Positions 865 through 62,084 of a stretch of DNA of 64,000 bases are shown here, piece after piece (position 1 is the stretch's first letter; each line of letters begins with the position of its first letter). The translations under genes and the position numbers were made by a program. Below the pieces are notes generated by a model. It was not told where the DNA came from, did not search any database, and saw nothing but the letters and a program-made list of their open reading frames with translations. Source of the DNA: Escherichia virus TH15; the sequence record MT446392.1; one strand, 5' to 3'.

Positions 865-942
865 GAGTTATGTGTTATTATTAATAAGTACCCTCTATTA
901 CCAAAGGTTCTTCCCTCAAAGAACCTCTCATAATAGAATTAA

Positions 943-1016
943 GGCCCTGTAGCTGGACGGTCAAGCGAGCGACTCATAATCGCTGGATGGTGGTTCGATT
1001 CCACCCAGGGCCACCA
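943..1016 (+). tRNA. tRNA, anticodon CAT (Met or lysidine-type Ile)
   Basis: Cloverleaf: acceptor GGCCCTG/CAGGGCC, anticodon stem AGCGA/TCGCT loop CTCATAA, T-arm GGTGG-TTCGATT-CCACC, encoded CCA. Confidence 0.85.
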
Positions 1017-1150
1017 AACTTATTTTAAATTATCATGGCGATAGGTATTGTAGATGCGGTTCGATTCCGTCCGGGGTAAGTGCCCTAGCATGCTTGGAGC
1101 ATGAGTGACTTAATATTGGTGGTTCGAGTCCACCCCGCTATGAACAAACA

Positions 1151-1226
1151 CGAGGCATAGCTCAGAAGGAAGAGCAAGGACCTTCTAAGTCCTAGGTCGT
1201 AGGTTCGATTCCTACTGTCTCGACCA
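1151..1226 (+). tRNA. tRNA-Arg, anticodon TCT
   Basis: Acceptor CGAGGCA/TGTCTCG, D-arm AGCTCAG, anticodon stem AGGAC/GTCCT loop CTTCTAA, T-arm GTAGG-TTCGATT-CCTAC, CCA. Confidence 0.85.
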
Positions 1227-1540
1227 AACAAGAAACCGGGTCGCTACCGGTAAGTCGTCGGACTGAAGTTCCCTGTTTAAGGACTGACATTAATAAATCT
1301 TTATGTTTTGTTAATGACCCCTTATCTCACAGCTGAAACGGCGCACCTAATTATCGATTCGAGGAAATATCTTTGCCGTAAGCCGAGTGGCGTTTTTGAC
1401 GGAACGTTCGGATATGGTCGAGATATGGCCTTTTAAAAATATTGAGTAGCGTCAACTACTTGATAACCGGGTTCGAATCCCGGCGTATCGTACAAACACT
1501 TGCCTAGCAGGTGGAACCCCGACAAGGTTACCCTAGGTTA

Positions 1541-1571
1541 AAGCCCCTCCCGAAAGGTTGGGGCTTTTTTA
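1541..1571 (+). terminator. rho-independent terminator after tRNA cluster
   Basis: GC stem AGCCCC/GGGGCT then T6. Confidence 0.6.
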
Positions 1572-1577
1572 TAAATA
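1570..1577 (+). promoter_or_regulatory. T4-type late promoter TATAAATA
   Basis: Exact TATAAATA ~27 nt upstream of ATG 1604. Confidence 0.45.
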
Positions 1578-1603
1578 TAACGTACCCATAACTAAGGAAA
1601 TTT

Positions 1604-2158: not shown

Positions 2159-2162
2159 TCGA

Positions 2163-2186
2163 ACCCGCTCCGGCGGGTTTATTTTT
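2163..2186 (+). terminator. rho-independent terminator
   Basis: Stem ACCCGC/GCGGGT then T-rich run. Confidence 0.55.
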
Positions 2187-2205
2187 AATATTTCTTCAAA
2201 AAGTA

Positions 2206-2235
2206 GTGTACATCCGGATTGACCGGGTGCATAAT
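2206..2235 (+). promoter_or_regulatory. T4-type early promoter
   Basis: -35 GTGTACA, 17-nt spacer, -10 CATAAT; A-rich upstream. Confidence 0.6.
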
Positions 2236-2285: not shown

Positions 2286-2711
2286 ATGAACTTTCTGACC
2301 CTGACCTCTGCATTCTCTGTTACCCGCATCACTAACAAAATGGTTGCTGATGAAGTATGTGAAATCTGCATTCGTGAAGATGCACTTATCCATCTGACTT
2401 CAACCCAAATTGTTGCCATCGCCAAGTCCCTTAATTCTGAACTGAAGGTAAACACCAAACAGTCAAAAGAATCCATCATTGAATTAATCCAAGCTGAAAT
2501 GATTGAATTCCCAATTGAAGAAGTTAAAGAAGAAAAAATCCAGTCCAAATCTGGTAACGCCCGTGACATTTGCTTCCAGGCATTTGCAGAAATTGATATG
2601 AATGATAATGCAGCTCGTCGCGCTCTGATTGATGACCTGGTTACTACCCATGATATCAAAAAGACTGTTGTTCAGTCTTATGCTTCCAACTTCCGCAAAG
2701 CTCAAAAATAA
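2286..2711 (+). CDS. hypothetical protein (paralog of 2795..3238)
   Basis: 141 aa; C-terminal NxAARRALID...VQSYASNFRK shared with next gene. Confidence 0.6.
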   Translation: MNFLTLTSAFSVTRITNKMVADEVCEICIREDALIHLTSTQIVAIAKSLNSELKVNTKQSKESIIELIQAEMIEFPIEEVKEEKIQSKSGNARDICFQAFAEIDMNDNAARRALIDDLVTTHDIKKTVVQSYASNFRKAQK

Positions 2712-2722
2712 TTGAGAAAAGT

Positions 2723-2752
2723 GTTTTACTTCCAAGTGGGATAGTGTATAAT
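2723..2752 (+). promoter_or_regulatory. T4-type early promoter
   Basis: -35 GTTTTACT, -10 TATAAT, followed by conserved leader. Confidence 0.55.
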
Positions 2753-2794
2753 TATCCCATACTGAGTTACCAAATAAACAAACGGGATAATAAA

Positions 2795-3238
2795 ATGAAA
2801 ACTTCAAAACTGGTTAAGTACGTTAAACTGGCATTAAACAACTCTTCTGAAGCTGAAGCGCAATCCGCAGCGCGTATGTTCTTCAAACGTCTGACAGCTG
2901 AAGGTATTTCATTTAACCCGGCAGTATTTGGTATCACTCGTGGCGAAGCTGCTAAACTGGCAACTCTGGCAGGTAAAATTTTTAAAGGTCTGAATGATGG
3001 ACAGGTTAAACCAGAAGTTAAACCTACTCCTAAAGCTGAACCAAAAGCTGAGTGTAAGGCACCTAAACGCTCCGGTATGAGCAACAAAGATTTATGCTAT
3101 GATATGTTCAAAACTGTTAATATGTCTAATGGTGCTGCTCGCAGAGCTGTTATTGATATGATTGTGCGTGAGTTTGGATTCAACAAAGCATCAGTTCAAT
3201 CTTATGCTTCCAACTTCCGCAAAGAATTTGAAATTTAA
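2795..3238 (+). CDS. hypothetical protein (paralog of 2286..2711)
   Basis: ATG at 2795 after GGGATAATAAA; track ATG 2744 lies inside promoter. Confidence 0.6.
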   Translation: MKTSKLVKYVKLALNNSSEAEAQSAARMFFKRLTAEGISFNPAVFGITRGEAAKLATLAGKIFKGLNDGQVKPEVKPTPKAEPKAECKAPKRSGMSNKDLCYDMFKTVNMSNGAARRAVIDMIVREFGFNKASVQSYASNFRKEFEI

Positions 3239-3245: not shown

Positions 3246-3265
3246 AGGGGGTATACAAGCCCCCT
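3246..3265 (+). terminator. GC hairpin (terminator-like) containing a promoter -35
   Basis: Stem AGGGGG/CCCCCT, 8-nt loop holding GTATACA. Confidence 0.5.
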
Positions 3266-3280
3266 GCTTTAAGGCATAAT
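3251..3280 (+). promoter_or_regulatory. T4-type early promoter embedded in hairpin
   Basis: -35 GTATACA in hairpin loop, 17-nt spacer, -10 CATAAT. Confidence 0.55.
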
Positions 3281-3319
3281 GATTCCATACTGAGTTACCA
3301 AATAAAACTGGAGAATAAA

Positions 3320-3625
3320 ATGAAATTCATCATCAACCTGGCGCTTGTTGACTTTGATAAAACTGGTAATTTCGCATCTGCTGAAAATATGATTCGCAAC
3401 ACTAAGTTCAAAGTGCAAGTCCAGCAGGCGGTAGCAAAAGAGTTCTTTACTGATAAATTAACCCACGTTGTCAATCACCTGAATGTGCAAGTTAAATTCA
3501 CTCGTAAAGCAGAAACTACAGTTGAATTTGATTTTGAATGTCGTTACCATGATGAATATGTTCGCCGCATCCTTAATATTGTATCTGATGAACTTTACTA
3601 TGGTGTGCAGGAAAACAAAATCTAA
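3320..3625 (+). CDS. hypothetical protein
   Basis: 101-aa ORF with GGAGAATAAA SD. Confidence 0.55.
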   Translation: MKFIINLALVDFDKTGNFASAENMIRNTKFKVQVQQAVAKEFFTDKLTHVVNHLNVQVKFTRKAETTVEFDFECRYHDEYVRRILNIVSDELYYGVQENKI

Positions 3626-3629: not shown

Positions 3630-3659
3630 GTGTACGCTTTAACGGGAACATGATAGTAT
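3630..3659 (+). promoter_or_regulatory. possible early promoter
   Basis: -35 GTGTACG, 17-nt spacer, weak -10 TAGTAT; overlaps 8-bp inverted repeat GGGAACAT/ATGTTCCC. Confidence 0.35.
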
Positions 3660-3701
3660 GTTCCCTGGATAATAAAACATTAACCAACTGAAGGAAATAC
3701 C

Positions 3702-8134: not shown

Positions 8135-8164
8135 GTGTACAACCAAATGGGGCTATGACATAAT
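8135..8164 (+). promoter_or_regulatory. T4-type early promoter
   Basis: -35 GTGTACA, 17-nt spacer, -10 CATAAT. Confidence 0.6.
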
Positions 8165-8191
8165 GGTCCCACAATCAATGAGGAAAATATT

Positions 8192-10148: not shown

Positions 10149-10904
10149 ATGAATTATCTAAAAATATATGAATCTTTAATAGTATCTGCTATTAAAAGAC
10201 CTCTTACACAAGGATACACCGAAAAACATCATATTTTACCGAAATCGATGGGTGGTAATGATTCTATTGATAATTTAGTTACCCTTACCGCCCGTGAACA
10301 TTTTATTGCACACTTATTATTGGCAAGAATTTTTAAGAATCGCGAAATGTGGTCCGCTGCATATATGATGGCTTCAACAAGTCTAACTAACTCGGATAGA
10401 CATAGATGCTCGTCACATTTATATGAATTATTGCGTAAACAAGCGTCGGTATATAATTCAGGTGAAAATTCTCCAAATTGGGGAATAAAACGTTCTGAAG
10501 AAACACGATTAAAAATGTCAATTTCAAAAATGGGTATCAGGAATCCAATGTACGGTATTCCACAATGTTTGGAACACTCTCATAAAATTAGCCTTGGTGT
10601 TACCGAAGCTTTTAAAAATCCAGAAATGAAAGAACGCCACCGTCAAAGTGTTTCTGGAGAGAATAATGGGTTTTATGGAAAAAAACATTCCGAAAAAAGT
10701 TTGGAAAAACAGCGGAATACAAAACGGAAAGGATTTCCTTGGGACAATTATTTGGAATTGTACCCAATTTGGGTTTCATTAAATTGCCCCAAGCATCCAA
10801 CATTCACAAATGAACTTGTTAAATTGGGATACCCCAAAAAGAAGCTTGTTCGAATAGTGGAAGAGTTTAAAAATGAATATATTCGAAATGCTACGCATAG
10901 ATGA
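10149..10904 (+). CDS. HNH homing endonuclease
   Basis: HNH motif [31 protein letters not shown]; inserted between nudE and e. Confidence 0.8.
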
Positions 10905-11361: not shown

Positions 11362-11390
11362 TTTACATCTCCAAACGATAGGGTTATAAT
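11361..11390 (+). promoter_or_regulatory. T4-type early promoter
   Basis: -35 GTTTACA, 17-nt spacer, -10 TATAAT. Confidence 0.65.
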
Positions 11391-11416
11391 GACCCTATCA
11401 ACTACGGAGAACAAAC

Positions 11417-12147: not shown

Positions 12148-12176
12148 GTTTACTTTATGATGGGATAGTGTATAAT
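12148..12176 (+). promoter_or_regulatory. T4-type early promoter overlapping the next start codon
   Basis: -35 GTTTACT, 16-nt spacer, -10 TATAAT whose last bases form the ATG at 12175. Confidence 0.55.
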
Positions 12177-12474
12177 GTTAACTTATCAAGAATTTATCAC
12201 AGAAGCCAAAGTTCCTAAAGCATTTCAAATTGGGGTTCAAGGCAATTTAGACCAACAATATGTTGATGCTATTGTAGCAAGCCTCGGTAAACAAGGGGTG
12301 CAAGTGGATTTGGTTGATTTTACCAAAGGCAATACTTTTAATATTGTTACATCTAAAGGTTCTTTAGCTAAAGTTAAAAAGGCCTTTGGCGTAGCACAAG
12401 CATACGAAATCGACCATTCTGAATTCGAAAATAAAGGTCGCCAGAACACAATTAAAGGCTCTGGTTCTTTTTAA
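12175..12474 (+). CDS. internal-protein-like (capsid targeting sequence)
   Basis: Starts MLTYQEFITE; paralog of 11882..12145. Confidence 0.55.
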   Translation: MLTYQEFITEAKVPKAFQIGVQGNLDQQYVDAIVASLGKQGVQVDLVDFTKGNTFNIVTSKGSLAKVKKAFGVAQAYEIDHSEFENKGRQNTIKGSGSF

Positions 12475-14313: not shown

Positions 14314-14342
14314 TGTACAAGCAGGTTGAAATGAGTTATGAT
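14314..14342 (+). promoter_or_regulatory. T4-type early promoter
   Basis: -35 GTGTACA, 16-nt spacer, -10 TATGAT. Confidence 0.5.
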
Positions 14343-14369
14343 TATCCCATCAAACAAAAGGAGATAATC

Positions 14370-14828
14370 ATGACTACTATCGATTCAAGTGTTTACATTC
14401 GCCGCAATAAACTTCGTCGTATTTTTGAAACGGAGTTCCTCAAAATTAATAATGCTATCAACAAGGCTTGTAAAGAAGCAGGCCTTGAAGCATTCTTCAT
14501 TAAGTACAGTCCACACCTGTTGGACCGTGCAATCCAACGTGAAATTGACGAACAATATGTTTTTGACTTGTTTGGAAAAATCACACCACATGTAAAAGAA
14601 ATTGTTGAATTCCTGGAGATGAAACCACTCCCGGAAGTTGAAGCACAAATTGACCCGAATGTGAACTACCGTCCACTTCGTCTGGAAATCACAGACAAGA
14701 ACCTATGGTTAGGAATGACAGTTAACCCAGCTCTTCCTGGGAAGTCTCCAACCATGTGTTGTCGTATGGCGTTTGTTAACTCTAATCGTCTGGAAGGAAA
14801 AATTAGCACAAAAGTGATTTATATCTAA
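14370..14828 (+). CDS. regB: RegB endoribonuclease
   Basis: MTTIDSSVYIRRNKLRRIFETEF...HLLDRAIQREIDE matches T4 RegB; ATG 14370 after AAGGAG. Confidence 0.85.
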   Translation: MTTIDSSVYIRRNKLRRIFETEFLKINNAINKACKEAGLEAFFIKYSPHLLDRAIQREIDEQYVFDLFGKITPHVKEIVEFLEMKPLPEVEAQIDPNVNYRPLRLEITDKNLWLGMTVNPALPGKSPTMCCRMAFVNSNRLEGKISTKVIYI

Positions 14829-18183: not shown

Positions 18184-18190
18184 TTCAAAA

Positions 18191-18216
18191 GGTCTGCCTT
18201 CGGGTGGACCTTTTTT
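18191..18216 (+). terminator. rho-independent terminator
   Basis: Stem GGTCTGCC/GGTGGACC, loop TTCG, T6. Confidence 0.6.
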
Positions 18217-18225: not shown

Positions 18226-18255
18226 GTTTACATCCTCATAAAAAGGGTGTACTAT
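18226..18255 (+). promoter_or_regulatory. T4-type early promoter
   Basis: -35 GTTTACA, 17-nt spacer, -10 TACTAT. Confidence 0.5.
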
Positions 18256-21510: not shown

Positions 21511-21516
21511 ATTCTA

Positions 21517-21540
21517 AGGACCCTTCGGGGTCCTTTTTTA
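21517..21540 (+). terminator. rho-independent terminator
   Basis: Stem GGACCC/GGGTCC, loop TTCG, T6. Confidence 0.65.
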
Positions 21541-21552: not shown

Positions 21553-21582
21553 GTGTACAACAAGATGGTCATGAGGCATAAT
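21553..21582 (+). promoter_or_regulatory. T4-type early promoter
   Basis: -35 GTGTACA, 17-nt spacer, -10 CATAAT. Confidence 0.6.
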
Positions 21583-22140: not shown

Positions 22141-22170
22141 GTGTACACCAGTATGGGAGCGTGACATAAT
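22141..22170 (+). promoter_or_regulatory. T4-type early promoter
   Basis: -35 GTGTACA, 17-nt spacer, -10 CATAAT. Confidence 0.6.
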
Positions 22171-22208
22171 GTTCCTATACTGAGTTACCAAACAAACGGG
22201 AGAATAAA

Positions 22209-22733: not shown

Positions 22734-22759
22734 ACGCTTTATACCAAGGATGGTATAAT
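22733..22759 (+). promoter_or_regulatory. possible middle-type promoter (MotA-box-like)
   Basis: AACGCTTTA, 12-nt spacer, -10 TATAAT. Confidence 0.4.
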
Positions 22760-22796
22760 GGTTCTGACCTTTGATTAATCTATTGAGGAAAATAAT

Positions 22797-27195: not shown

Positions 27196-27311
27196 GCCAT
27201 GGTATACCGCTCGATGGGAAACTGTCGAGCCAGAGGAACCGGTTTACAACGGTTTCGAAACAGAGTATAATGAACCTTCAAACAATGATTTAATCGATAT
27301 GGAGTTTGGAT

Positions 27312-27754: not shown

Positions 27755-27930
27755 TGAAAACTAAATTAGTCTATACTGAAAAATTAAATGGTGCCAAGGT
27801 CTGGAAACTTCTTATCAAAGGAAGTCCTACCGACCAGTTTATGGCCACCTGTGTGGGATTGTATACTCGTCCTACCAAAAAGATGATTCGTCAATTTAAA
27901 CGGTTGCATCGCTCTTTCTATAATATTTAA
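27754..27930 (+). CDS. hypothetical small basic protein (58 aa)
   Basis: TAATG junction; below track cutoff. Confidence 0.35.
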   Translation: MKTKLVYTEKLNGAKVWKLLIKGSPTDQFMATCVGLYTRPTKKMIRQFKRLHRSFYNI

Positions 27931-27966
27931 TAAATACCCTTATCTAATAATGGTAGGGGTTAAATT

Positions 27967-29043
27967 ATGCAAGATTATGGCCATTGGTCTGTATTTGAAG
28001 AAGTTGACATTAAAAATTATATTGGGTTTGTGTACGTGATTACATTTGAAGACGGTCGCAAATATGTTGGTGCTAAAAAGATTTGGAAACGAATCAAAGC
28101 AGCTCCATGCACATTCAAGCGCGGTCCCAAAAAAGGTTTTGAAGAATCTGATTGGAAAACCTACACATCCTCATCAAATGAGTTAAACTCAATTCTGGAA
28201 AATGGTATAAAGCCAAAAGAAATGATTATCATGGGTTGGTATCCAACTTGGGGTAAAACACTTATGGCTGAAATGGAAATGCAACTAGCTAATGATGTTT
28301 TGCGAGACCCAATGTGGCTCAACAAACAGATTGGTGGTCATTTCAACCCCAACTGTTTTGATGATTTGACTCAAGATGATATTGCTCGATGGATTGAATT
28401 TGACAAAGGCAATGAACATGTTAATTGGCCTGTGATGTATAAAATGGGTCAGAAAACTAAATATGTTAAACCTGACGAAGTTGAAAATTATTTGGCGAAG
28501 GGTTGGCAGTTTGGGCGTTCTCGTTCAGAAAAGCATGGAATAATTACCAATTGTTCTTCGTATAAAATTTGGGATTACCAGACTGATACGGAAGTTGAAG
28601 TCGTTAACCAAACCGAGTTCGCGCAAGAAAATGAAATCTCTGCAAGTCATTTAACCAGACTGTTACAGGGTGATTTAGACCTAATTCAGGAACGTTGGGG
28701 CTTACCTCCGACCATTGCACGACAAAGATACAAATTTGCTTTGGCTGATGATAGTGTAAAATTTATATCGAACGCTGATGTTGAACAATATTTTGGTGTT
28801 GGTCGCGGTGGTTGTGCAAAAATATTAAAAGATGGAAAAATTAAAAAGTTGGTCGTGGAAGACAAAAAATCGCATAAAGCAAAACTTGCAACCATGGATT
28901 TAGTCAAAACAGTTCGACATGAAAAAGTTTCACAAATGGAATTAAACTTTTTCAAAGATATGGTTAATCCGCTATCTCAAACTGAAAGAGATAACTTAAC
29001 AGTATGGCTCGAAAGCTATATACAGTATTTAAAAAACAACTGA
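27967..29043 (+). CDS. GIY-YIG homing endonuclease-like protein
   Basis: N-terminal IGFVYVITFEDGRKYVGAKK GIY-YIG-like motif; 358 aa. Confidence 0.65.
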   Translation: MQDYGHWSVFEEVDIKNYIGFVYVITFEDGRKYVGAKKIWKRIKAAPCTFKRGPKKGFEESDWKTYTSSSNELNSILENGIKPKEMIIMGWYPTWGKTLMAEMEMQLANDVLRDPMWLNKQIGGHFNPNCFDDLTQDDIARWIEFDKGNEHVNWPVMYKMGQKTKYVKPDEVENYLAKGWQFGRSRSEKHGIITNCSSYKIWDYQTDTEVEVVNQTEFAQENEISASHLTRLLQGDLDLIQERWGLPPTIARQRYKFALADDSVKFISNADVEQYFGVGRGGCAKILKDGKIKKLVVEDKKSHKAKLATMDLVKTVRHEKVSQMELNFFKDMVNPLSQTERDNLTVWLESYIQYLKNN

Positions 29044-29181
29044 GGAAATCGCTCAAATGATTAATTTTTATGGCTACATATTTTATGCTTTAGCTGAATC
29101 TATGAATGATATTATCCGCCGCATGGGTGACGAGTATCCTTCTCAATGGCTATTCCTCGTAACCAATACAGGACCTTTCTA

Positions 29182-29991: not shown

Positions 29992-30013
29992 AAAGGGGTG
30001 TACAAGCCCCTTT
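29992..30013 (+). terminator. GC hairpin (terminator-like) containing a promoter -35
   Basis: Stem AAAGGGG/CCCCTTT with GTGTACA in loop. Confidence 0.5.
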
Positions 30014-30027
30014 GAATGATGTATCAT
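29998..30027 (+). promoter_or_regulatory. T4-type early promoter embedded in hairpin
   Basis: -35 GTGTACA, 17-nt spacer, -10 TATCAT. Confidence 0.5.
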
Positions 30028-31124: not shown

Positions 31125-31191
31125 AAACCAACGGGGTCATGGTATAATGACCCCAAGGATAATAAAATTTTAATTGAATGAGGAATATATC

Positions 31192-32047: not shown

Positions 32048-32072
32048 CGCTTTGTATCAAGGATGATATAAT
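32046..32072 (+). promoter_or_regulatory. possible middle-type promoter upstream of gene 55
   Basis: AACGCTTTG, 12-nt spacer, -10 TATAAT. Confidence 0.4.
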
Positions 32073-32095
32073 ATTCATATACTAAGTGAGGCGAT

Positions 32096-35110: not shown

Positions 35111-36779
35111 GCTAAAGAAAGTTATCTATAAAAATATCATGTCAGTTGGAGCGCAAGCAATTACGGTTCAACTTGATAAAGTCCAGAAAACTCTGGTGAC
35201 CGGTAAGAACGGTGCAGGTAAATCAACCTTCCTTGAAGCCGTTACATTTGCATTGTTTGGTAAGCCTTTTCGTGATGTTAAGAAAGGGCAGTTGATTAAC
35301 TCGAGCAACAAAAAAGATATGCTCGTTGAATTGTGGATGGAATATGATGGAAAAGAATACTATATCAAGCGTGGGCAAAAACCCAATGTTTTTGAAATCT
35401 CTTGTGGCGGTGAACGTCTTGATGAATCTGCCAGCAGTAAAGACTTCCAAGCAGAATTTGAACAGCTTATCGGAATGTCATACGCCAGTTTCAAACAGAT
35501 TGTCGTGCTCGGCACAGCTGGATATACCCCTTTCATGGGCCTATCCACTCCTGCAAGAAGAAAACTTGTCGAAGACCTGTTAGAGGTTTCTGTACTGGCG
35601 GATATGGATAAGCTGAACAAATCTCTTATCCGTGAAGTCAACAGTCAAATCCAGGTGATTGATGTTCAGCATGATGGTGTTGTGCAACAGATTAAAATCT
35701 ACCAGGACAACGTTGAAAAGCAGAAAAAATTATCAGGTGATAATCTGCTGCGGTTGCAAACGATGTATGATGATTTGGCTTCAGAAGCTCGTGATATCAA
35801 ATCAACGATTGATGAAGCAACGACAAGATTGACCGAGATTATTTTGGGCGAAGACCCTGAACAGGAACTGACGAAAGTCAAGCAAGAATCGTTCCTGATT
35901 AAATCGAAAATCGATAGCTTCCGTAAAGTAATCGGTTTGTACGAGAAAGGCGGTTGTTGCCAAACGTGTTTGAGTCAATTGTCGCCAGGAGACTCCATAG
36001 TCCCCAGGATTGAGACAAAGATTGAAGAGTATAATCGTGAGTCTGATAGCCATAAAGCTCTCCAGGCCTCCATTCAGGAGCGATTTGATGCGTACGCTGA
36101 AGCAAGACAAAACCAACGTACAATAGCTCAAGAGATTCAAACTAAGAAACAAACATTAATCCAGACTGTGGATAAAGCTAAAAAGGTTAAGACGTTAATT
36201 GAACAAGCTAAGTCTGAATTCATTGACCATGCCGATGATATTAAAACGCTTCAAGACCAGCTTGATAAAATAGTCAAACAGAAATCTGACCTTGTTATGG
36301 AAAAATATCAACGTGGTATCTTAACTGATATGTTGAAAGATTCTGGAATCAAAGGCGCGATTATTAAGAAATATATTCCTATCTTTAATAAGCAAATTAA
36401 TGCTTATCTGAAAGTTATGGAAGCTGATTATAGTTTTACGCTTGATGAAGAATTCAACGAAACAATTAAATCTCGTGGGCGTGAAGACTTTAGCTATGCA
36501 TCATTTAGCCAGGGTGAAAAAGCTCGTATCGATATTGCATTGTTGTTTACATGGCGTGATATTGCTGCGAAAGTATCTGGTGTGCAAATTAGTACGTTGA
36601 TTCTGGATGAGGTCATGGATTCAGCCACTGACGCCGAAGGCATCAAAGCTATCCAGGCAATTATCAATAAATTAGAAGGTCAAAACGTGTTTATCATTAG
36701 CCATCGTGAACACGACCCAGAAGCATATGGGCAGCATCTTCAAATGAAAAAAGTTGGTCGATTTACTGTTCTGGAATGA
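35097..36779 (+). CDS. 46: recombination endonuclease subunit gp46 (Rad50-like ATPase)
   Basis: Walker A GKNGAGKST, coiled coil with CxxC hook, C-terminal signature/Walker B; ATG 35097. Confidence 0.9.
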   Translation: MKTFKLKKVIYKNIMSVGAQAITVQLDKVQKTLVTGKNGAGKSTFLEAVTFALFGKPFRDVKKGQLINSSNKKDMLVELWMEYDGKEYYIKRGQKPNVFEISCGGERLDESASSKDFQAEFEQLIGMSYASFKQIVVLGTAGYTPFMGLSTPARRKLVEDLLEVSVLADMDKLNKSLIREVNSQIQVIDVQHDGVVQQIKIYQDNVEKQKKLSGDNLLRLQTMYDDLASEARDIKSTIDEATTRLTEIILGEDPEQELTKVKQESFLIKSKIDSFRKVIGLYEKGGCCQTCLSQLSPGDSIVPRIETKIEEYNRESDSHKALQASIQERFDAYAEARQNQRTIAQEIQTKKQTLIQTVDKAKKVKTLIEQAKSEFIDHADDIKTLQDQLDKIVKQKSDLVMEKYQRGILTDMLKDSGIKGAIIKKYIPIFNKQINAYLKVMEADYSFTLDEEFNETIKSRGREDFSYASFSQGEKARIDIALLFTWRDIAAKVSGVQISTLILDEVMDSATDAEGIKAIQAIINKLEGQNVFIISHREHDPEAYGQHLQMKKVGRFTVLE

Positions 36780-36802
36780 GCCTCTTATTGAGGCTTCATT
36801 TT
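36779..36802. terminator. bidirectional terminator hairpin between convergent genes
   Basis: Stem GAGCCTC/GAGGCT(T)C with T-rich flank. Confidence 0.5.
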
Positions 36803-37501
36803 GCAGTTATCAAAATGCCAACGTTTCATATTAGCTGGTGTACCGACTACATTACAGTGTGGACACTGAATTTTGGGGTCCACCTTTTTCTTCCGGTTTG
36901 GATTGGATTTGCAGAATTGTCGGTGAGTGGATATAACACACTTTTTACCTTCAATACCACAAAATTCACAAGTTAAAATTTCATGTTTAGCTTGTTTTAA
37001 TCCTACTGAAATTTTTTGCTTTCGTTCTTCTGAAATAGTATGAACAACCTTGTTTGGACCTTTGGAACAGTTATCAAAATGCCAACGATTCATATTGCCA
37101 ACGAGACCGGTTTTTCCACAATGTGGACATTCAACTCTCGGTTTTAATTTGGCAGATTCTGACATTTTCTTTCTGGTTTCATCGGAGAAAATTTTATTTT
37201 GTTGAGCTTCCAAGTTTTTACGACGAAGCCATCCAAATAATTTGTTTTTGCTTCTGTCGGTGTTTGGTGCAGAAACTGTCATCATGCGTGCGGCATAGAC
37301 CAAAGAAGCATTATTTGGATGCATTTTGACCAACAGTTGATGACAAACGAAATGTTCCTCGGGAGTTAAATCAACAAGATTTGAAGCGTCGTCTGCCCCA
37401 CCCATACAACGGGGTATAATGTGATGACTTTCAGAGTATGTGGTTAATTTGCGATTCAATGCTCTGCTAATAAGCTTTTGGTAAATGATGTTATAATTCA
37501 T
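36785..37501 (-). CDS. HNH homing endonuclease with zinc-finger repeats
   Basis: SESHHIIPRCMGGADDASNLVDLTPEEHFVCH plus repeated CPHC...WHFDNC; start at internal ATG with AAGGG SD. Confidence 0.7.
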   Translation of the reverse strand: MNYNIIYQKLISRALNRKLTTYSESHHIIPRCMGGADDASNLVDLTPEEHFVCHQLLVKMHPNNASLVYAARMMTVSAPNTDRSKNKLFGWLRRKNLEAQQNKIFSDETRKKMSESAKLKPRVECPHCGKTGLVGNMNRWHFDNCSKGPNKVVHTISEERKQKISVGLKQAKHEILTCEFCGIEGKKCVISTHRQFCKSNPNRKKKVDPKIQCPHCNVVGTPANMKRWHFDNCKMKPQ

Positions 37502-37541
37502 ATCAGACCCTTGTTTGATACTGCAACGGATAATATTATTT

Positions 37542-37733
37542 ATGAGCAATTTTTTAACCGGGCAGCATTTACTGGCTGTCCCCGAAATTAAACGATATGT
37601 GTTAGTTAATACCTTTTCGAAAGATGAACACCTAGTTACTGAACGTGACTTACAAAACGCTTTCGGTGAAGAATATGTTAAAATAATCGCGAACAGACAC
37701 AAAGCCTGGTTCGCATATGAATACTTTGATTAA
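37542..37733 (+). CDS. hypothetical protein (uncertain)
   Basis: 63-aa ORF in divergent intergenic region; weak SD. Confidence 0.3.
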   Translation: MSNFLTGQHLLAVPEIKRYVLVNTFSKDEHLVTERDLQNAFGEEYVKIIANRHKAWFAYEYFD

Positions 37734-37756: not shown

Positions 37757-38164
37757 ATGAACAACGTAACTGCTAAAGATATCCAAGTTAAAACCATCCG
37801 CACCGACGCTAACCCACATAACCAAAACCGCATCCGTAAATCCTGGGTCCTGGCATGTGATGAAGTATCTGCCACCCGTCTGAAATCACTTCCTCAAGAA
37901 GTTAAATTTATGTTGTATGGTGTTATTGATACTGATGTATCTGATAAGTGGATTGAACTGATGCAACGTCATTACACCGAATCTCTGGCAGCTGGTGCTA
38001 AACTGGTTATCGACCGTGACGGCTCCGAACGTCTAGAAGATGATTACTGTGTTGACTTCGATGACCACCTGGTCCAAGCTGGTTCTATTATTGCTGCGCA
38101 ACTTCCAGAGTATATTGAATCTCTTCCGGAAGCTATCCGCAAACAAATGGCAGTTGTTGCGTGA
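37757..38164 (+). CDS. rpbA: RNA polymerase-binding protein RpbA-like
   Basis: Position between 46 and 45 as in T4, similar size; not sequence-verified. Confidence 0.45.
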   Translation: MNNVTAKDIQVKTIRTDANPHNQNRIRKSWVLACDEVSATRLKSLPQEVKFMLYGVIDTDVSDKWIELMQRHYTESLAAGAKLVIDRDGSERLEDDYCVDFDDHLVQAGSIIAAQLPEYIESLPEAIRKQMAVVA

Positions 38165-39048
38165 ATTTGATTTATAAAATAACCTTTATAACAAGGGAAC
38201 AAAATAACGAATTCCCTTGTTATTATATTGGTTCAAAGGTTGATGCGACATTTAACGGTCAAAATATTCTCGACAAAAATAATAAAATTTATACAGGTTC
38301 TCCGAATTCAAAATACACTAAGCTGTATAATGAATTGATTGATAGAGGTGACTATATTGTTACTATCATTGGAGAAACAAAGCAGGACCCAAGAAAAATA
38401 GAAAATATTTTTCAAATGTCAGTTAAAGCTGTAACCAATGAGAAGTACTTTAATAAAACGTATGCTCACGACCAAAGCCGGTATGATGCTCCTGGATATG
38501 CTCCATACCGAAACTTGAAAACAGGTAAAGTCGTTAAATTGCATCCATCTGAACTTACATCTGATTATGTTGGTGTTCGTAAAGACTGCTCAATTTCGGA
38601 TAAGCACATTCAAGCAATTAAAGACTTTCAAAAAGAATATTGGACTGCCGAAGCTCGACAAGCAAGGTCTATTGAAGTCAAAAATCGTTATAAAGATGCC
38701 GAGTATGCTTTAAAATTCAAAGTTATAATGAATACATCTGAAGTATACGAAAAATATTTAAAATCAATTACTGAATATTGGAATAATTCAGATAATAGAA
38801 TAAAGGCTTCAAAACGAGCAACTGAAAGAAATGCTAGTCCTGAGTTTAAAGAAAAATTTAGGAAATCCAAAGCAAGGGGAACCTGGTTGCAGTATGAAGA
38901 TGAACTTAAAACATTGTGGAATGCTTTAGGTCAACCGGGGTATATTAAGTTTAGAAAACACGCCATTGAACATGGGTTTAATGATGAAAATTATCAGGGT
39001 GCAATCCGGTCCTGGTCAAATTATTATGTTAATAGGAAAATGAAATGA
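38161..39048 (+). CDS. GIY-YIG homing endonuclease-like protein
   Basis: N-terminal IYKITFITREQNNEFPCYYIGS motif; GTG/TTG start; inserted between rpbA and 45. Confidence 0.65.
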   Translation: MNLIYKITFITREQNNEFPCYYIGSKVDATFNGQNILDKNNKIYTGSPNSKYTKLYNELIDRGDYIVTIIGETKQDPRKIENIFQMSVKAVTNEKYFNKTYAHDQSRYDAPGYAPYRNLKTGKVVKLHPSELTSDYVGVRKDCSISDKHIQAIKDFQKEYWTAEARQARSIEVKNRYKDAEYALKFKVIMNTSEVYEKYLKSITEYWNNSDNRIKASKRATERNASPEFKEKFRKSKARGTWLQYEDELKTLWNALGQPGYIKFRKHAIEHGFNDENYQGAIRSWSNYYVNRKMK

Positions 39049-43522: not shown

Positions 43523-44210
43523 ATTGCATTTTGTGTATAAAATTACAAATAACATTAATGGTAAAATTTACATCGGTGTTCACAGCACCGATGATATTAA
43601 TGATGGATATTTGGGCAAAGGTACTTTAATTCAGAAAGCTATTAAAAAATATGGGAAATCTAATTTTAAAAAGGAAATTTTGGAATTTTTCGAGGACCGC
43701 ACTTCAGCCTTTGACAAAGAGCGAGAGCTTGTAACCAGAGAATTTGTCAGTTTGACAACAAACTATAATTTAAAAACTGGCGGCGAAGGTGGTGCAATGT
43801 ATGGTAAAACCAATCCGATGTATGGTCGAACATATAGGAAGTCGGAATCAGAGAAGACCCAAATTTCGTTGCGATTTAAAAATGTTCCCAAAACCAACCA
43901 GCACAAACAAAACCTATCCAATTCATTACTCGGTAAACCCAGACCGGACATCGCTGAGAGACAGCGCGGATTGTTACCCTGGAATGTTAATTCTATTCGC
44001 AATAACAAAACCAGACTAAGAAAATTCGCCGACCTGGATATTATTTTCGATTATTGGTCTAGTCATAAATGTGGTGTTAAAGCATTAGCGAATTGGTATC
44101 AACTGGCGACGTATAATGAATTAGCATCCGTTATGCGATTCATTAAAAAGTATGGTGACCCGCGACTGAATGGTGATTGGAAAAAATTTAAGGCTGACTA
44201 TGAATATTGA
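43512..44210 (+). CDS. GIY-YIG homing endonuclease inserted in gene 43
   Basis: N-terminal HFVYKITNNINGKIYIGVHS GIY-YIG motif; overlaps both polymerase ORFs. Confidence 0.75.
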   Translation: MENKLHFVYKITNNINGKIYIGVHSTDDINDGYLGKGTLIQKAIKKYGKSNFKKEILEFFEDRTSAFDKERELVTREFVSLTTNYNLKTGGEGGAMYGKTNPMYGRTYRKSESEKTQISLRFKNVPKTNQHKQNLSNSLLGKPRPDIAERQRGLLPWNVNSIRNNKTRLRKFADLDIIFDYWSSHKCGVKALANWYQLATYNELASVMRFIKKYGDPRLNGDWKKFKADYEY

Positions 44211-49374: not shown

Positions 49375-49397
49375 AAAAGGGGCTTACAGCCCCTTTT
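49375..49397 (+). terminator. terminator hairpin containing a promoter -35
   Basis: Stem AAAAGGGG/CCCCTTTT, loop CTTACAG. Confidence 0.6.
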
Positions 49398-49411
49398 TCT
49401 TATGTTATAAT
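49383..49411 (+). promoter_or_regulatory. T4-type early promoter embedded in terminator hairpin
   Basis: -35 CTTACA in loop, 17-nt spacer, -10 TATAAT. Confidence 0.5.
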
Positions 49412-49437
49412 GACCCTATCAACTACTGGAGAATAAA

Positions 49438-49755
49438 ATGAAAACTATTGATTGCAAAGCGGAATACAAAGTTTATTATCATGGCTCAAGCTCTAATGCT
49501 GGAATCCAAAATATGCTTTGCCCTCCTGATGCAACTGGTGTTCTGTCAGAAGTTGGGCGCAAGAAAAATTTAGGGCGTGTGTTTTTTACTGAAGATATTG
49601 GTTTGGCACGTATCTATGCAGGAAGAGCAGCTCGTTCAGTGGGAGGAGAACCCCGTCTTTATCGTGTGATTGCACCTGTTGATGTGGTTTGTTTAAATGA
49701 TACTAAAGGCGCAACAGTTTATCACGCAGACTGGGCGTTTTGTGAGGAAATCTAA
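49438..49755 (+). CDS. hypothetical protein
   Basis: 105 aa; ends EEI with GAGGAAATCTAA forming SD of next gene. Confidence 0.55.
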   Translation: MKTIDCKAEYKVYYHGSSSNAGIQNMLCPPDATGVLSEVGRKKNLGRVFFTEDIGLARIYAGRAARSVGGEPRLYRVIAPVDVVCLNDTKGATVYHADWAFCEEI

Positions 49756-50310: not shown

Positions 50311-50340
50311 GTGTACAACAAAGGGATAATGCAGTATATT
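50311..50340 (+). promoter_or_regulatory. T4-type early promoter
   Basis: -35 GTGTACA, 17-nt spacer, -10 TATATT; flanked by 9-bp inverted repeat AGGGATAAT/ATTATCCCT. Confidence 0.5.
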
Positions 50341-50368
50341 ATCCCTATCAACTACTGAGGAGATTGAA

Positions 50369-54106: not shown

Positions 54107-54109
54107 TGA

Positions 54110-54117
54110 TATAAATA
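54110..54117 (+). promoter_or_regulatory. T4-type late promoter TATAAATA
   Basis: Exact TATAAATA ~32 nt upstream of soc. Confidence 0.55.
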
Positions 54118-54384: not shown

Positions 54385-54410
54385 AAAGGGAACCTTCGGG
54401 TTCCCTTTTT
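54385..54410 (+). terminator. rho-independent terminator
   Basis: Stem AAAGGGAACC/GGTTCCCTTT loop TTCG then T-run. Confidence 0.65.
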
Positions 54411-56235: not shown

Positions 56236-56264
56236 TTTACTTACTCCCCTCCTAATGACATAAT
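56235..56264 (+). promoter_or_regulatory. T4-type early promoter
   Basis: -35 GTTTACT, 17-nt spacer, -10 CATAAT. Confidence 0.6.
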
Positions 56265-56291
56265 GGCCTTTCTTACAACAGAGAGGCCATT

Positions 56292-56852
56292 ATGAACATC
56301 ATCAAATCTGATACCGAACCCAACCAGTTAAAATTTAGTGAAATGGAGATAGCTTCATTGTTTGAATGTCGCACATCAAAGGTTGACAAAACCTTGCATT
56401 CAAACGTCAACTCAATCATCAAGTCAAGGTTATCTGTACCTGATACAGTCTTGTATCGCGGGGTTACCCAGCAAGAGATTGATTTGTTAGATGAAGCAAA
56501 AGAATCAATGCAACCTTTTGAATTTGGAAGAATAACTTCCTTTACAGAAGACTACGGTATTGCCAGGGATTTTGCTGCAATGGAATATGTGACAAGGACT
56601 ATCGTCAGATTGAATCAGACCAAAGCTTTTTGTTACCATGATGCGATGCGCAAAATCGCGCTTGATGTTCCACTGGAATTCTTCAATACTGCTTCTGGTT
56701 CCAAACAGGCAGCTACATTAAGGCGTGAAGAATACATGGACATGATTGATTCTGAGCTTGAATGGTTTGTTCCAGTTGACCAGAAATACGTGATAGTTGA
56801 TGCTGGATTTGTTGGTGATTATTATGTTCTTGACTGTGTACAAGAACAATAA
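56292..56852 (+). CDS. ADP-ribosyltransferase-like protein (ModB position)
   Basis: R-S-E-type motifs: LYRGV, TSFTED, SELEW; T4 synteny soc-mrh-modB-modA-srd. Confidence 0.6.
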   Translation: MNIIKSDTEPNQLKFSEMEIASLFECRTSKVDKTLHSNVNSIIKSRLSVPDTVLYRGVTQQEIDLLDEAKESMQPFEFGRITSFTEDYGIARDFAAMEYVTRTIVRLNQTKAFCYHDAMRKIALDVPLEFFNTASGSKQAATLRREEYMDMIDSELEWFVPVDQKYVIVDAGFVGDYYVLDCVQEQ

Positions 56853-62007: not shown

Positions 62008-62012
62008 GTTTA

Positions 62013-62042
62013 GTGTACAAACTCTTGGGGCCAGAGTATAAT
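62013..62042 (+). promoter_or_regulatory. T4-type early promoter
   Basis: -35 GTGTACA, 17-nt spacer, -10 TATAAT. Confidence 0.6.
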
Positions 62043-62084
62043 GGTCCCACTGGAGAATAAACTTATTAACCAAGAGAGAAAATT

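What the first reader, a model, noticed from the sequence alone, without database searches (positions are those of the whole stretch)
3246..3280. Promoter-stem-loop cassettes: early-promoter -35 elements embedded in GC hairpins
At 3246..3280, 29992..30027 and 49375..49411 a GC-rich hairpin that looks like the upstream gene's terminator carries the -35 element (GTATACA / GTGTACA / CTTACA) in its loop, followed at 17 nt by a TATAAT-like -10. Other promoters sit just after UUCG-loop terminators (18191/18226, 21517/21553). Several -10 regions are flanked by short inverted repeats (3644..3665, 11380..11396, 31133..31154, 50322..50346). This resembles the mobile promoter-early stem-loop cassettes I recall being described for pseudo-T-even phages and would provide recombination substrates for shuffling small genes.
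Basis: partly seen in the sequence, partly recalled or inferred. Interest (0 to 1): 0.55.

Follow-up and report, generated by a model that had tools for sequence, protein, structure and literature searches.

The report
Early promoter–hairpin cassettes in T4-like phage
These are repeated intergenic cassettes of a T4-like coliphage, each combining a strong early promoter with a GC-rich hairpin: a published design (PeSLs) found here in another phage genus, so real but not new.

Summary
At 3246-3280, 29992-30027 and 49375-49411 a G/C-clamped hairpin holds the -35 hexamer in its loop, and a TATAAT-like -10 follows after 17 nt. The UUCG terminators followed by promoters, and the inverted repeats around the -10, are also real.

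The window is an early and replication region of a Gaprivervirus (VR7/SP18 group), 90-95% identical to known genomes. It carries about 26 early promoters (consensus aaaaGTAG-TGTACA-N17-YATAAT), all on the + strand. Half have a stable hairpin inside the promoter core, against about 1.3 expected.

The -35-in-loop design is the minority class (3 solid loci). Hairpins centred on the -10 are commonest, and they lack U-tracts. The cassettes form two multicopy families with conserved leaders, and their ribosome-binding sites are often strong RegB cleavage sites.

This matches the published PeSL cassettes of RB49/phi1, T4/PST and KVP40/nt-1 in architecture but not in sequence.

The proposed recombination role is only partly supported. 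Site 49367 is a textbook case and several breakpoints make chimeric promoters. However, cassette-bearing gene junctions are not significantly enriched for indel breakpoints (odds ratio 1.4-2.4, p>0.1). Many indels are homing endonucleases or lie at junctions without a cassette.

The parts
3246..3265 (+). GC-clamped hairpin with the -35 hexamer (TATACA, 3252-3257) in its loop. It starts 7 nt after the upstream stop codon.
   Evidence: dG -12.4; z -2.0. Identical in 7 relatives. Its + strand tail UGCUUUAAG is only a marginal U-tract.
3252..3280 (+). Early promoter TATACA-N17-CATAAT.
   Evidence: (25.8 bits)
3310..3322 (+). GGAGAATAAAA-TG: ribosome-binding site that matches the strong RegB site consensus GGAGRAYARAA, plus the start codon of the downstream ORF (3320-3625).
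   Evidence: consensus taken from PMC3014915
29992..30013 (+). Hairpin with the -35 (TGTACA, 29999-30004) in its loop. It starts directly after the stop codon of the nrdH-like gene.
   Evidence: dG -11.3; z -2.3; stem invariant in relatives; lies between nrdH and 55.6 in VR7
29999..30027 (+). Early promoter TGTACA-N17-TATCAT, followed by a family-B leader and the ATG at 30059.
   Evidence: 27.4 bits; repeat family D2
49375..49397 (+). Hairpin and U-tract with the -35 (CTTACA, 49383-49388) across the loop. It is a canonical intrinsic terminator shape located after gene 41.
   Evidence: dG -13.8; called terminator-like on both strands; z -4.0. VR7 has GGGGG-TGTACA-CCCCC at the same site.
49383..49411 (+). 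Early promoter CTTACA-N17-TATAAT. The RegB-consensus ribosome-binding site is at 49428-49438 and the ATG at 49438.
   Evidence: (23.3 bits)
27235..27256 (+). Weak candidate hairpin around the -35 of promoter TTTACA-N17-TATAAT (27243-27271).
   Evidence: (dG -8.6). It is not above chance (z -0.9) and its stem is partly broken in relatives.
18187..18214 (+). UUCG-loop intrinsic terminator, followed by early promoter 18227-18255.
   Evidence: (dG -16.1)
21516..21535 (+). UUCG-loop intrinsic terminator, followed by early promoter 21554-21582.
   Evidence: (dG -13.3). Relatives carry insertions of 191-1011 bp exactly here.
2161..2235 (+). Terminator 2161-2180, then early promoter 2207-2235, with a second hairpin (2211-2229) in the spacer.
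2736..2760 (+). -10-centred hairpin of promoter 2725-2752.
   Evidence: (dG -12.2)
3644..3665 (+). -10-centred hairpin of promoter 3631-3659.
   Evidence: dG -11.0; z -2.05. TH54 has a different -35 half joined at 3643.
8148..8171 (+). -10-centred hairpin of promoter 8136-8164.
   Evidence: Relatives keep the pairing through T-A/C-G exchanges.
11377..11399 (+). -10-centred hairpin of promoter 11362-11390, upstream of the denV-like gene.
   Evidence: z -6.1
22149..22182 (+). 14-bp hairpin spanning the spacer, the -10 and the start-site region of promoter 22142-22170.
   Evidence: dG -19.6; z -5.0
31133..31154 (+). -10-centred hairpin around TGGTATAAT.
   Evidence: dG -13.8; z -3.1
50322..50346 (+). 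-10-centred hairpin of promoter 50312-50340.
   Evidence: z -2.3
62026..62049 (+). -10-centred hairpin of promoter 62014-62042, upstream of the motB-like gene.
   Evidence: There is a compensatory C-G to T-A change in TH40/TH54/TH57.
56259..56294 (+). 14-bp hairpin pairing the -10 region of promoter 56236-56264 with the ribosome-binding site and ATG of the modB-like gene.
   Evidence: dG -20.5; z -5.9

Best explanation
These are composite 'promoter-early stem-loop' (PeSL-type) cassettes that mark the boundaries of small early transcription units in a T4-like coliphage of the genus Gaprivervirus.

Each cassette is an A/T-rich stretch, a host sigma-70-type early promoter (aaaaGTAG-TGTACA-N17-YATAAT), a short conserved leader and a ribosome-binding site, often GGAG. 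A G/C-clamped inverted repeat is overlaid on the promoter or placed just before it.

As double-stranded DNA, the element is read by E. coli RNA polymerase immediately after infection. This step is inferred from the consensus and from the T4 literature.

In RNA that reads through from the upstream gene, the inverted repeat folds into a hairpin. Where a U-tract follows (49375, 18187, 21516, 2161), the hairpin should terminate transcription. Where none follows (3246 and 29992 are marginal, and all -10-centred hairpins lack one), it more likely attenuates transcription, blocks 3' exonucleases or masks the downstream ribosome-binding site.

The predicted transcription start lies at or beyond the 3' arm. 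Transcripts made from the cassette's own promoter therefore lack the hairpin, so the hairpin acts only on upstream RNA and insulates each gene module. The GGAG(RAYARAA) ribosome-binding site makes the new mRNA a target of the phage RegB nuclease, whose gene lies in the window, giving the module a built-in shut-off.

Placing the -35 in the loop, with the C-run and T-rich tail serving as promoter spacer, is simply the most compact way to overlap the two signals.

The cassettes occur in two multicopy families sharing 60-85% identity over 35-77 nt. They can serve as short homologies for recombination, and some indels and chimeric promoters between relatives have breakpoints inside them. In this data set they are one contributor among several, not the dominant route.
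For: Identity and context:
- The window is 90-95% identical to Gaprivervirus genomes, and it is the early and replication arm running from nrdC/tRNA through e, tk, regB, g43, g41 and dda to motB.

Promoters:
- 14 strict hits against 0.2 expected, all on the + strand; 27 against 3.9; 26 by weight matrix.
- They sit 20-44 nt upstream of ribosome-binding site plus ATG, before genes that are early in T4 (modA, modB, srd, motB, regB, denV, ip).
- The region upstream of the -35 is AT-rich: 0.70 against 0.61 for the window.

Hairpins:
- 13 of 26 promoter cores have one, against 1.3 expected; 76 of 154 against 1.6.
- z-scores reach -6.
- Stems differ in sequence between loci but keep the same register on the -10.
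- Ortholog changes in stems: 31 one-sided changes that keep pairing, 6 compensatory, 26 breaking.
- VR7 keeps the -35-in-loop hairpin at the 49375 site with a G-C/C-G swap.
- The sense strand is slightly more stable than the antisense strand.

Repeat families:
- The top direct-repeat families in the window are these cassettes.
- There are 9-13 copies per genome of one family and 3-8 of the other, across the genus.
- There are none in the conserved replication block 32-45.3 kb, against 18 and 8 in the two flanking variable regions.

RegB link:
- GGAG is in the ribosome-binding site of 11/22 cassette genes against 10/120 other genes (p=1.4e-5).
- GGAGRAYARAA gives 5 hits against 0.48 expected, and 4 of them end on a cassette gene's ATG. 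The consensus is from PMC3014915.

Recombination:
- At 49367 the extra genes in TH44, TH41 and VR7 are flanked by a cassette on each side.
- Breakpoints fall inside promoters at 3643, 11363, 21552 and 49399.
- Three tandem paralogue pairs are separated by cassettes.

Precedent:
- Published PeSLs have the same architecture, and promoter and terminator activity has been shown for them in reporters (PMC2839356; PMC4122927).
Against: - No transcription data exist for this phage. Start sites, termination and RegB cleavage are all inferred.
- Two of the three -35-in-loop hairpins and all -10-centred hairpins lack a canonical U-tract on the + strand, so 'terminator' is not established for most of them.
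- A generic TTGACA/TATAAT scan is not enriched over shuffles. Only the phage-specific consensus is.
- Stems do not evolve more slowly than loops (9.8% against 10.8% substitutions). 26 ortholog changes break pairs, although some of these reflect replaced or shifted hairpins.
- The sense/antisense stability difference is borderline within the window (p=0.06).
- The association with breakpoints is not significant at the junction level. Most insertion sites have one cassette or none.
Confidence: 0.8

Rival explanations
1. Coincidence of packing. Independent terminators and promoters are simply squeezed together in very short intergenic gaps, and the overlap of hairpin and -35 or -10 has no significance of its own.
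For: Intergenic gaps are short, at 55-110 nt. The upstream UUCG type (18187, 21516, 2161) is plain terminator-then-promoter. The individual z-scores for 3246 and 29992 are only about -2.
Against: Hairpins inside promoter cores are 10-50 times more frequent than expected. Eighteen distinct cores share exactly the same hairpin register on the -10 while having different stem sequences. -10-centred hairpins lack U-tracts, so they are not ordinary terminators that happen to be nearby. The -35-in-loop arrangement persists at orthologous sites with altered stem and loop sequence.
Confidence: 0.05
2. The inverted repeats act on DNA rather than RNA. They could be cruciforms or hairpins extruded from supercoiled or single-stranded DNA that modulate promoter opening. 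Alternatively they could be cut by endonuclease VII or bound by recombination proteins, which would make them recombination hotspots.
For: The repeats are centred precisely on the -10 or -35, the DNA elements contacted by polymerase. Arbiol et al. left open site-specific versus homologous recombination. Several breakpoints lie inside the cassettes.
Against: Stems contain many G-T pairs that would be A-C mismatches on the other strand, and the sense strand tends to fold better (85 against 48 cores). This bias is expected for RNA or for one DNA strand only. Breakpoints are no more frequent at cassette junctions than at others. No protein or activity links these repeats to DNA-level action here.
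Confidence: 0.12
3. The A-run/G-run...C-run/T-run hairpins are bidirectional or antisense terminators. Their main job would be to stop transcription entering the early region on the opposite strand, for example late-mode antisense transcripts.
For: The terminator scan calls 3246 and 29992 only on the - strand, and calls 49375 on both strands.
Against: Nearly all genes in the 64 kb are on the + strand, and no - strand promoters above background were found. The upstream A-run is equally explained as the A/T-rich UP-like region of early promoters. -10-centred hairpins have no T-run on either side.
Confidence: 0.1
4. The cassettes are actively mobile elements that move small genes as excised mini-circles (the PeSL mini-circle model), and they are the main driver of gene-content change in this genus.
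For: Site 49367 has a gene or genes bracketed by two cassettes in TH44, TH41 and VR7, against one cassette in the window. The 1574-2182 gene that is absent from VR7 is bracketed by two terminator hairpins. Arrays of cassettes are spaced 0.3-1.1 kb apart. Mini-circles were detected in RB49/phi1 (PMC2839356).
Against: Fisher tests give p 0.15-0.43. Only 1 of about 20 insertion sites has promoter cassettes on both sides, and about half have none. Several large indels are HNH or GIY-YIG homing endonucleases.
Confidence: 0.15

Closest known systems
PeSLs (promoter-early stem-loops) of pseudo-T-even coliphages RB49 and phi1 (Arbiol et al. 2010, PMC2839356)
   Same: - A sigma-70-like early promoter with an AT-rich upstream region.
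- A G(n)-loop-C(n) stem-loop placed upstream, over the -35, in the spacer or over the -10.
- The ribosome-binding site and start codon of a small gene follow.
- Dozens of copies, concentrated in the hyperplastic regions and avoiding core modules.
- Found at some indel boundaries between close relatives.
- -10-overlapping and spacer positions are the commonest there as well.
   Different: - There is no detectable sequence homology. Cassette searches hit only Gaprivervirus and a few neighbours, not RB49.
- The -35 consensus here is GTGTACA/GTTTACA rather than TTGACA.
- The association with indels is weaker here than the 10 of 14 reported for RB49/phi1.
- Promoter activity, terminator activity and mini-circles are untested here.
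PeSLs/PmSLs of T4/PST and KVP40/nt-1 (Comeau et al. 2014, PMC4122927)
   Same: The same composite terminator-promoter idea has been extended to other T4-like lineages, each with its own stem and promoter consensus. T4/PST uses TTTACW-N17-TAYWAT, which is close to the TTTACA/TGTACA found here. A middle-promoter version (PmSL) also has a likely counterpart here at 54385-54440.
   Different: In PST and nt-1 the stem-loops are described as lying just upstream of the promoter. Here, half of the promoters carry the hairpin inside the core. The stems here are G/C clamps rather than AGNA/TCNT.
T4 hairpins that mask translation starts in long early transcripts (genes e, soc, 49, I-TevI; reviewed in PMC3014915)
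   Same: A promoter lies inside the 5' arm of a hairpin. RNA started there is open for translation, while read-through RNA has the ribosome-binding site and AUG paired. Hairpin 56259-56294 has exactly this geometry.
   Different: In T4 the internal promoter is a late or middle promoter, and the hairpin delays expression. Here the internal promoter is an early one. For most cassettes the hairpin ends upstream of the ribosome-binding site and does not mask it.
RegB-controlled early mRNAs of T4 (GG*AGRAYARAA sites in ribosome-binding sites)
   Same: Cassette leaders carry GGAG ribosome-binding sites, and four match the full strong-site consensus. A regB homologue with its own cassette and GGAG ribosome-binding site is present (14314-14828).
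   Different: Cleavage has not been shown for this phage. Half of the cassette genes use GAGG or AGGA instead.

Membership tests
PeSL (promoter-early stem-loop cassette; Arbiol 2010, Comeau 2014) | Sigma-70-type early promoter (-35, about 17 nt, -10) in an intergenic position. | tested here: met
   14 strict hits against 0.2 expected, all on the coding strand; 27 against 3.9; 26 by weight matrix. Tested at sequence level only.
PeSL (promoter-early stem-loop cassette; Arbiol 2010, Comeau 2014) | [quoted passage not shown] | tested here: met
   Mean AT is 0.70 over the 22 nt upstream, against 0.61 for the window. The consensus there is aaaaGTAG.
PeSL (promoter-early stem-loop cassette; Arbiol 2010, Comeau 2014) | A stable stem-loop, typically G-run/C-run, placed upstream of the promoter, over the -35, in the spacer, over the -10 or just downstream. 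| tested here: met
   18 of 26 promoters have a hairpin in or just before the core. The classes seen are -35 loop (3-4), -10-centred (9), spacer (2) and upstream (5).
PeSL (promoter-early stem-loop cassette; Arbiol 2010, Comeau 2014) | Followed by the Shine-Dalgarno sequence and start codon of a (usually small, unknown-function) gene. | tested here: met
   For 22 of 26 promoters, a ribosome-binding site plus ATG lies 20-44 nt beyond the predicted start site. Products are 56-329 aa.
PeSL (promoter-early stem-loop cassette; Arbiol 2010, Comeau 2014) | Repeated motif with conservation spread over tens of nt up to about 100 nt, many copies per genome, enriched in hyperplastic regions. | tested here: met
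   Repeat families D1 (68 nt, 7 copies) and D2 (77 nt, 5 copies). There are 9-13 and 3-8 places per genome in the genus. None lies in the 32-45.3 kb replication core.
PeSL (promoter-early stem-loop cassette; Arbiol 2010, Comeau 2014) | Association with insertions, deletions and replacements between closely related phages. | tested here: inconclusive
   Clear cases exist at 49367, 3643, 11363, 21511 and 1574-2182. However, the junction-level odds ratio is 1.4-2.4 with p 0.15-0.43, and cassettes flank both sides of the insert at only one site.
PeSL (promoter-early stem-loop cassette; Arbiol 2010, Comeau 2014) | Demonstrated promoter activity and terminator or attenuator activity. | not testable with these tools
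   This needs reporter assays or 5'/3'-end mapping. By sequence, only 49375 and the UUCG hairpins look like canonical terminators.
PeSL (promoter-early stem-loop cassette; Arbiol 2010, Comeau 2014) | Formation of excised mini-circles between neighbouring cassettes. | not testable with these tools
   This requires PCR or sequencing of infected-cell or virion DNA.
Rfam-curated RNA families | A match to any curated structured-RNA model at its gathering score. | tested here: not met
   Only two tRNAs (943-1013 and 1151-1223) matched in the whole window.

The most novel reading that the evidence does not exclude
The dominant -10-centred hairpins, and the two U-poor -35-loop hairpins, may not be terminators at all. 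They could be one half of a two-part RNA-processing module. RegB would cut read-through RNA at the cassette's GGAG(AATAAAA) ribosome-binding site. Exonucleases would then trim the RNA back to the hairpin, 20-35 nt upstream. This would give each upstream small-gene mRNA a defined, protected 3' end without stopping polymerase. Transcripts started at the cassette's own promoter would be born without the hairpin. The cassette would then be a self-contained unit combining a promoter, a 3'-end maker and a shut-off site, and that complete unit would be what recombination moves around.
Probability: 0.2. Interest if true: 0.5.

Novelty: new member of a known kind. Interest (0 to 1): 0.3.

Why it matters
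The result shows that the PeSL design is also a genus-wide feature of Gaprivervirus (VR7/SP18-like coliphages, which are used in phage-therapy collections). The cassettes here have their own sequence families: an early promoter overlaid with a hairpin, plus a conserved leader. This supports the view that the architecture arises or is kept independently in different T4-like lineages.

Practically, the cassette consensus gives a quick way to annotate early transcription units and probable RegB targets in these poorly annotated genomes.

The analysis also tempers the published idea that such cassettes drive most gene shuffling. In this window they account for some events. Homing endonucleases and exchanges at cassette-less gene junctions account for at least as many.

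Tried and rejected
- The generic E. coli promoter scan (TTGACA/TATAAT, 9 of 12 matches) was not enriched over shuffles (70 against 58, 63 against 62, 49 against 53). It was therefore useless for defining the set, and the phage-specific consensus was needed.
- Rfam found nothing at gathering thresholds except two tRNAs.
- The fourth -35-in-loop candidate (27235-27256) is rejected as solid evidence. Its z-score is -0.9 and its stem is partly broken in relatives.
- An ortholog covariation test was weak. Most stems are invariant among the 8 relatives, only 6 changes are compensatory, and the stem and loop substitution rates are equal.
- The first strand-asymmetry test was biased, because the hairpins had been picked on the + strand. 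The unbiased repeat is only borderline.
- The junction-level and nucleotide-level association of breakpoints with cassettes is not significant. Eleven of 77 breakpoint clusters fall in promoter cores (my tally), which is about what is expected once breakpoints are restricted to intergenic DNA.
- Operator sites for a single repressor were rejected, because the stems differ in sequence from locus to locus.
- I did not run my pipeline on RB49 or phi1 as a positive control.
Full report
**What is there.**
The three cited sites read exactly as described:

| Site | Hairpin with -35 in the loop | Spacer | -10 |
|---|---|---|---|
| 3246-3280 | AAAAA-GGGGG-TATACAA-GCCCCC | 17 nt | CATAAT |
| 29992-30027 | AAAAA-GGGG-TGTACAA-GCCCC | 17 nt | TATCAT |
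| 49375-49411 | AAAA-GGGGC-TTACA-GCCCC-TTTTT | 17 nt | TATAAT |

Each is followed 20-33 nt beyond the predicted start site by a ribosome-binding site and an ATG. Each begins 0-8 nt after the stop codon of the upstream gene. RNA folding returns these hairpins as the minimum-energy structures, with z-scores of -2.0, -2.3 and -4.0. The UUCG terminators at 18187-18214 and 21516-21535, each followed by a promoter, are real. So are the inverted repeats around the -10 at 3644, 11377, 31133 and 50322.

**Where the window comes from.**
It is 90-95% identical to Gaprivervirus genomes (VR7, VR26, SP18 and the TH series), which are T4-like coliphages of about 170 kb. By the VR7 annotation it covers the early and replication arm, in reverse orientation. 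The gene order runs tRNAs, e.x ORFs, nudE, e, denV, ip genes, regB, tk, nrdC.x, 49, nrdH, 55, 47, 46, 45, 44, 62, regA, 43, uvsX, 41, 61, 56, soc, modB/modA, srd, dda, dexA, motB. Essentially all genes are on the + strand.

**The promoters are more than chance.**
- The pattern GTGTACA-N17-YATAAT with at most one mismatch occurs 14 times, always on the + strand, against 0.20+-0.43 in shuffles.
- A broader consensus scan gives 27 hits on the + strand, 4 on the - strand and 3.9+-2.0 in a Markov null.
- A weight matrix built from these sites finds 26 promoters at 12 bits or more (1 on the - strand, null 0.9).
- The region upstream of the -35 is A/T-rich (0.70 against 0.61).
- A generic TTGACA/TATAAT scan is not enriched, so the signal belongs to the phage's own consensus. 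That consensus resembles the T4/PST TTTACW-N17-TAYWAT and the strong UP/-35/TGn/-10 T4 early promoters reviewed in PMC2988021.

**The hairpins are more than chance.**
- Thirteen of the 26 promoter cores contain a hairpin of -8 kcal/mol or better. Random placement gives 1.3, with a maximum of 6 in 2000 trials.
- Counting hairpins just upstream as well, 18 of 26 promoters have one.
- In the window plus eight relatives there are 154 distinct promoter cores. Seventy-six have such a hairpin, against 1.6+-1.3 when the flanks are shuffled with the hexamers held fixed.
- By class, 56 cores are -10-centred, 13 are -35-centred and 7 have the hairpin in the spacer. The -35-centred cores come from only four loci, and one of those (27243) is weak.
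The usual design is a hairpin whose loop covers the first half of the -10 and whose 3' arm runs from the 'AT' of the -10 to about the transcription start.
- Eighteen distinct cores share exactly this register while having different stem sequences.
- Among orthologues, TGGGGCCA/TGGTCCCA changes to TGGGGTCA/TGACCCCA, and GGGACTAT/ATAGTCCC changes to GGGACCAT/ATGGTCCC. Both are compensatory changes.
- At the 49375 site, VR7 has GGGGG-TGTACA-CCCCC instead of GGGGC-TTACA-GCCCC.
- Overall the ortholog evidence is modest: 31 pair-keeping changes, 6 compensatory and 26 breaking, with stems evolving no more slowly than loops.

**Are the hairpins terminators?**
The upstream UUCG hairpins have 5-8 T in the next 9 nt, and 49375 has 6. 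These look like intrinsic terminators. 3246 and 29992 have marginal + strand tails, and the scan tool calls them terminators only on the - strand because of the upstream A-run. The -10-centred hairpins have only 1-3 T and are not canonical terminators.

What can be said from the sequence is that all these hairpins lie upstream of the predicted start site. They therefore exist only in RNA that reads through from upstream, never in the cassette's own transcript. In one case (56259-56294, -20.5 kcal/mol, z -5.9) the hairpin pairs the -10 region with the ribosome-binding site and ATG of the modB-like gene. This is the geometry known from T4 genes e, soc and 49. The sense strand folds somewhat better than the antisense strand (85 against 48 cores overall; 15 against 8 in the window, p=0.06). 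This leans towards an RNA-level role.

**The cassettes are repeated modules.**
- The largest direct-repeat families in the window are these intergenic elements: D1 (68 nt, 7 copies), D2 (77 nt, 5 copies) and D3-D7.
- Two leader families exist: ...GATTCCATACTGAGTTACCAAATAAA..GGAGAATAAAATG and ...TATCCCATCAACTACTGAGGAG...
- These families occur 9-13 and 3-8 times per genome, and essentially only in Gaprivervirus. They have no sequence homology with RB49/phi1 PeSLs.
- None lies in the conserved replication block at 32-45.3 kb, whereas 18 and 8 lie in the two flanking variable regions.
- GGAG is the ribosome-binding site of 11/22 cassette genes against 10/120 other genes (p=1.4e-5).
- The strong RegB site consensus GGAGRAYARAA (PMC3014915) occurs 5 times against 0.48 expected. 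Four of these hits end on the ATG of cassette genes, including those of the 3246 and 49375 cassettes.
- A regB homologue, itself behind a cassette, is at 14314-14828.

**Recombination.**
I aligned the window to eight relatives and found 77 breakpoint clusters for indels or replacements of 100 bp or more. Sixty-one lie at gene junctions.

Some cases fit the PeSL model very well:
- At 49367, TH44/TH41 (723-725 bp) and VR7 (424 bp) carry extra genes bracketed by a cassette on each side, where the window has one cassette.
- The gene at 1604-2158, absent from VR7, lies between two terminator hairpins.
- Breakpoints at 3643, 11363, 21552 and 49399 fall inside promoters and create chimeric cassettes.
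- Three tandem paralogue pairs are separated by cassettes.

The general association is nevertheless not significant. Junctions with a promoter or hairpin hold breakpoints in 16 of 40 cases, against 31 of 96 without (odds ratio 1.4, p=0.43). With both features the counts are 8 of 15 against 39 of 121 (odds ratio 2.4, p=0.15). Of 33 insertion variants at about 20 sites, only 49367 has promoter cassettes on both sides, and about half have none. Several large differences are homing endonucleases (HNH at 10149-10904, SegE-like at 27967-29043, GIY-YIG at 43512-44210).

**Comparison with what is known.**
Arbiol et al. 2010 defined PeSLs in RB49/phi1 by the following features:
- a sigma-70-like early promoter with an AT-rich upstream region;
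- a G(n)/C(n) stem-loop that may sit upstream, over the -35, in the spacer, over the -10 or downstream;
- a following ribosome-binding site and ATG;
- about 50 copies per genome, concentrated in hyperplastic regions.

They showed promoter and terminator activity and mini-circles, and they noted PeSL-like sequences near g43 of JS98. Comeau et al. 2014 extended the idea to T4/PST and KVP40/nt-1. No paper in the searched library describes PeSLs for Gaprivervirus.

All sequence-level defining features are met here. The functional features cannot be tested with these tools, and the indel association is inconclusive. I therefore file this as a new member of a known kind: the same architecture, built from lineage-specific sequence families.

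**Verdict.**
The finding is solid and useful for annotation, and of low to moderate interest (0.3).

The most novel reading not excluded is that the U-poor hairpins work together with the RegB sites as a module for making and protecting mRNA 3' ends, rather than as terminators (probability about 0.2).

Noticed in passing
window 41999-45375 (insert 43505-44283): The gene 43 DNA polymerase is in two ORFs (41999-43522, 507 aa; 44170-45375, 401 aa) separated by a GIY-YIG/SegE-like homing-endonuclease ORF (43512-44210). All eight relatives have 117-129 bp at this position instead of about 780 bp. No record in the phage collection covers the insert. This may be a 'gene in pieces' polymerase in a coliphage.
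   Followed up: partly
window 10149-10904: An HNH + NUMOD3 homing-endonuclease ORF lies between the nudE-like and e (lysozyme) genes. Seven of the eight relatives have 13-14 bp here instead of this 722-bp segment, and TH54 has a larger replacement spanning it.
   Followed up: partly
window 27921-29181: A SegE-like GIY-YIG ORF (27967-29043) occupies a site where six relatives carry about 2.9-3.0 kb and VR7/TH44 carry about 0.4-0.6 kb. From the hit annotations, the longer versions probably include the anaerobic ribonucleotide reductase genes, which this phage would then lack.
   Followed up: partly
window 36778-37550 and 38180-39038: Two further segments are absent from all eight relatives. The first holds the only long - strand ORF of the window (36785-37702, 305 aa, with only a weak zinc-ribbon hit). 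The second holds ORF 38161-39048 (295 aa, no Pfam match), inserted just before gene 45.
   Followed up: partly
window 56259-56294: A 14-bp hairpin (-20.5 kcal/mol, z -5.9) pairs the -10 region of the promoter with the ribosome-binding site and ATG of the modB-like gene. The start would be masked in read-through RNA but free in RNA started at its own promoter.
   Followed up: partly
window 12149-12204: The -10 TATAAT of this promoter overlaps the ATG (12175) of an internal-protein-like gene. TH44 has 239 bp more here (a leader plus another ip-like gene beginning MLTYKEF). The window copy therefore looks like a deletion between the conserved 5' ends of two ip genes, and it may depend on read-through for expression.
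   Followed up: partly
window 54385-54440; also 22734-22770 and 32048-32080: A UUCG hairpin is followed by TTGCTTTTA-N11-TATAAT, which is like a MotA-box middle promoter (a possible 'PmSL'). Two other intergenic sites share CGCTTT(A/G)TA(C/T)CAAGGATG(G/A)TATAAT, and the CAAGGATG motif recurs at 6832 and 24858.
   Followed up: no
window 54110-54117: A TATAAATA late-promoter motif lies 32 nt upstream of the soc-like gene (54149). Relatives carry 281-685 bp insertions (segF in VR7) exactly at 54107-54109.
   Followed up: no
window 940-1600: ARAGORN and Rfam call only tRNA-Met (943-1016) and tRNA-Arg (1151-1226). T-arm-like fragments (GGTTCGAGTCCACC near 1120, GGGTTCGAATCCCGG near 1470) suggest decayed tRNA genes. 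This stretch differs in length in every relative compared.
   Followed up: partly
window 2286-3238, 56292-57511, 61252-62639: There are three tandem paralogue pairs (42%, 30% and 42% protein identity). In each pair the two genes are separated by an early-promoter cassette, and the first pair also shares a 31-nt, 97% identical 3' end (2670-2700 and 3194-3224).
   Followed up: partly
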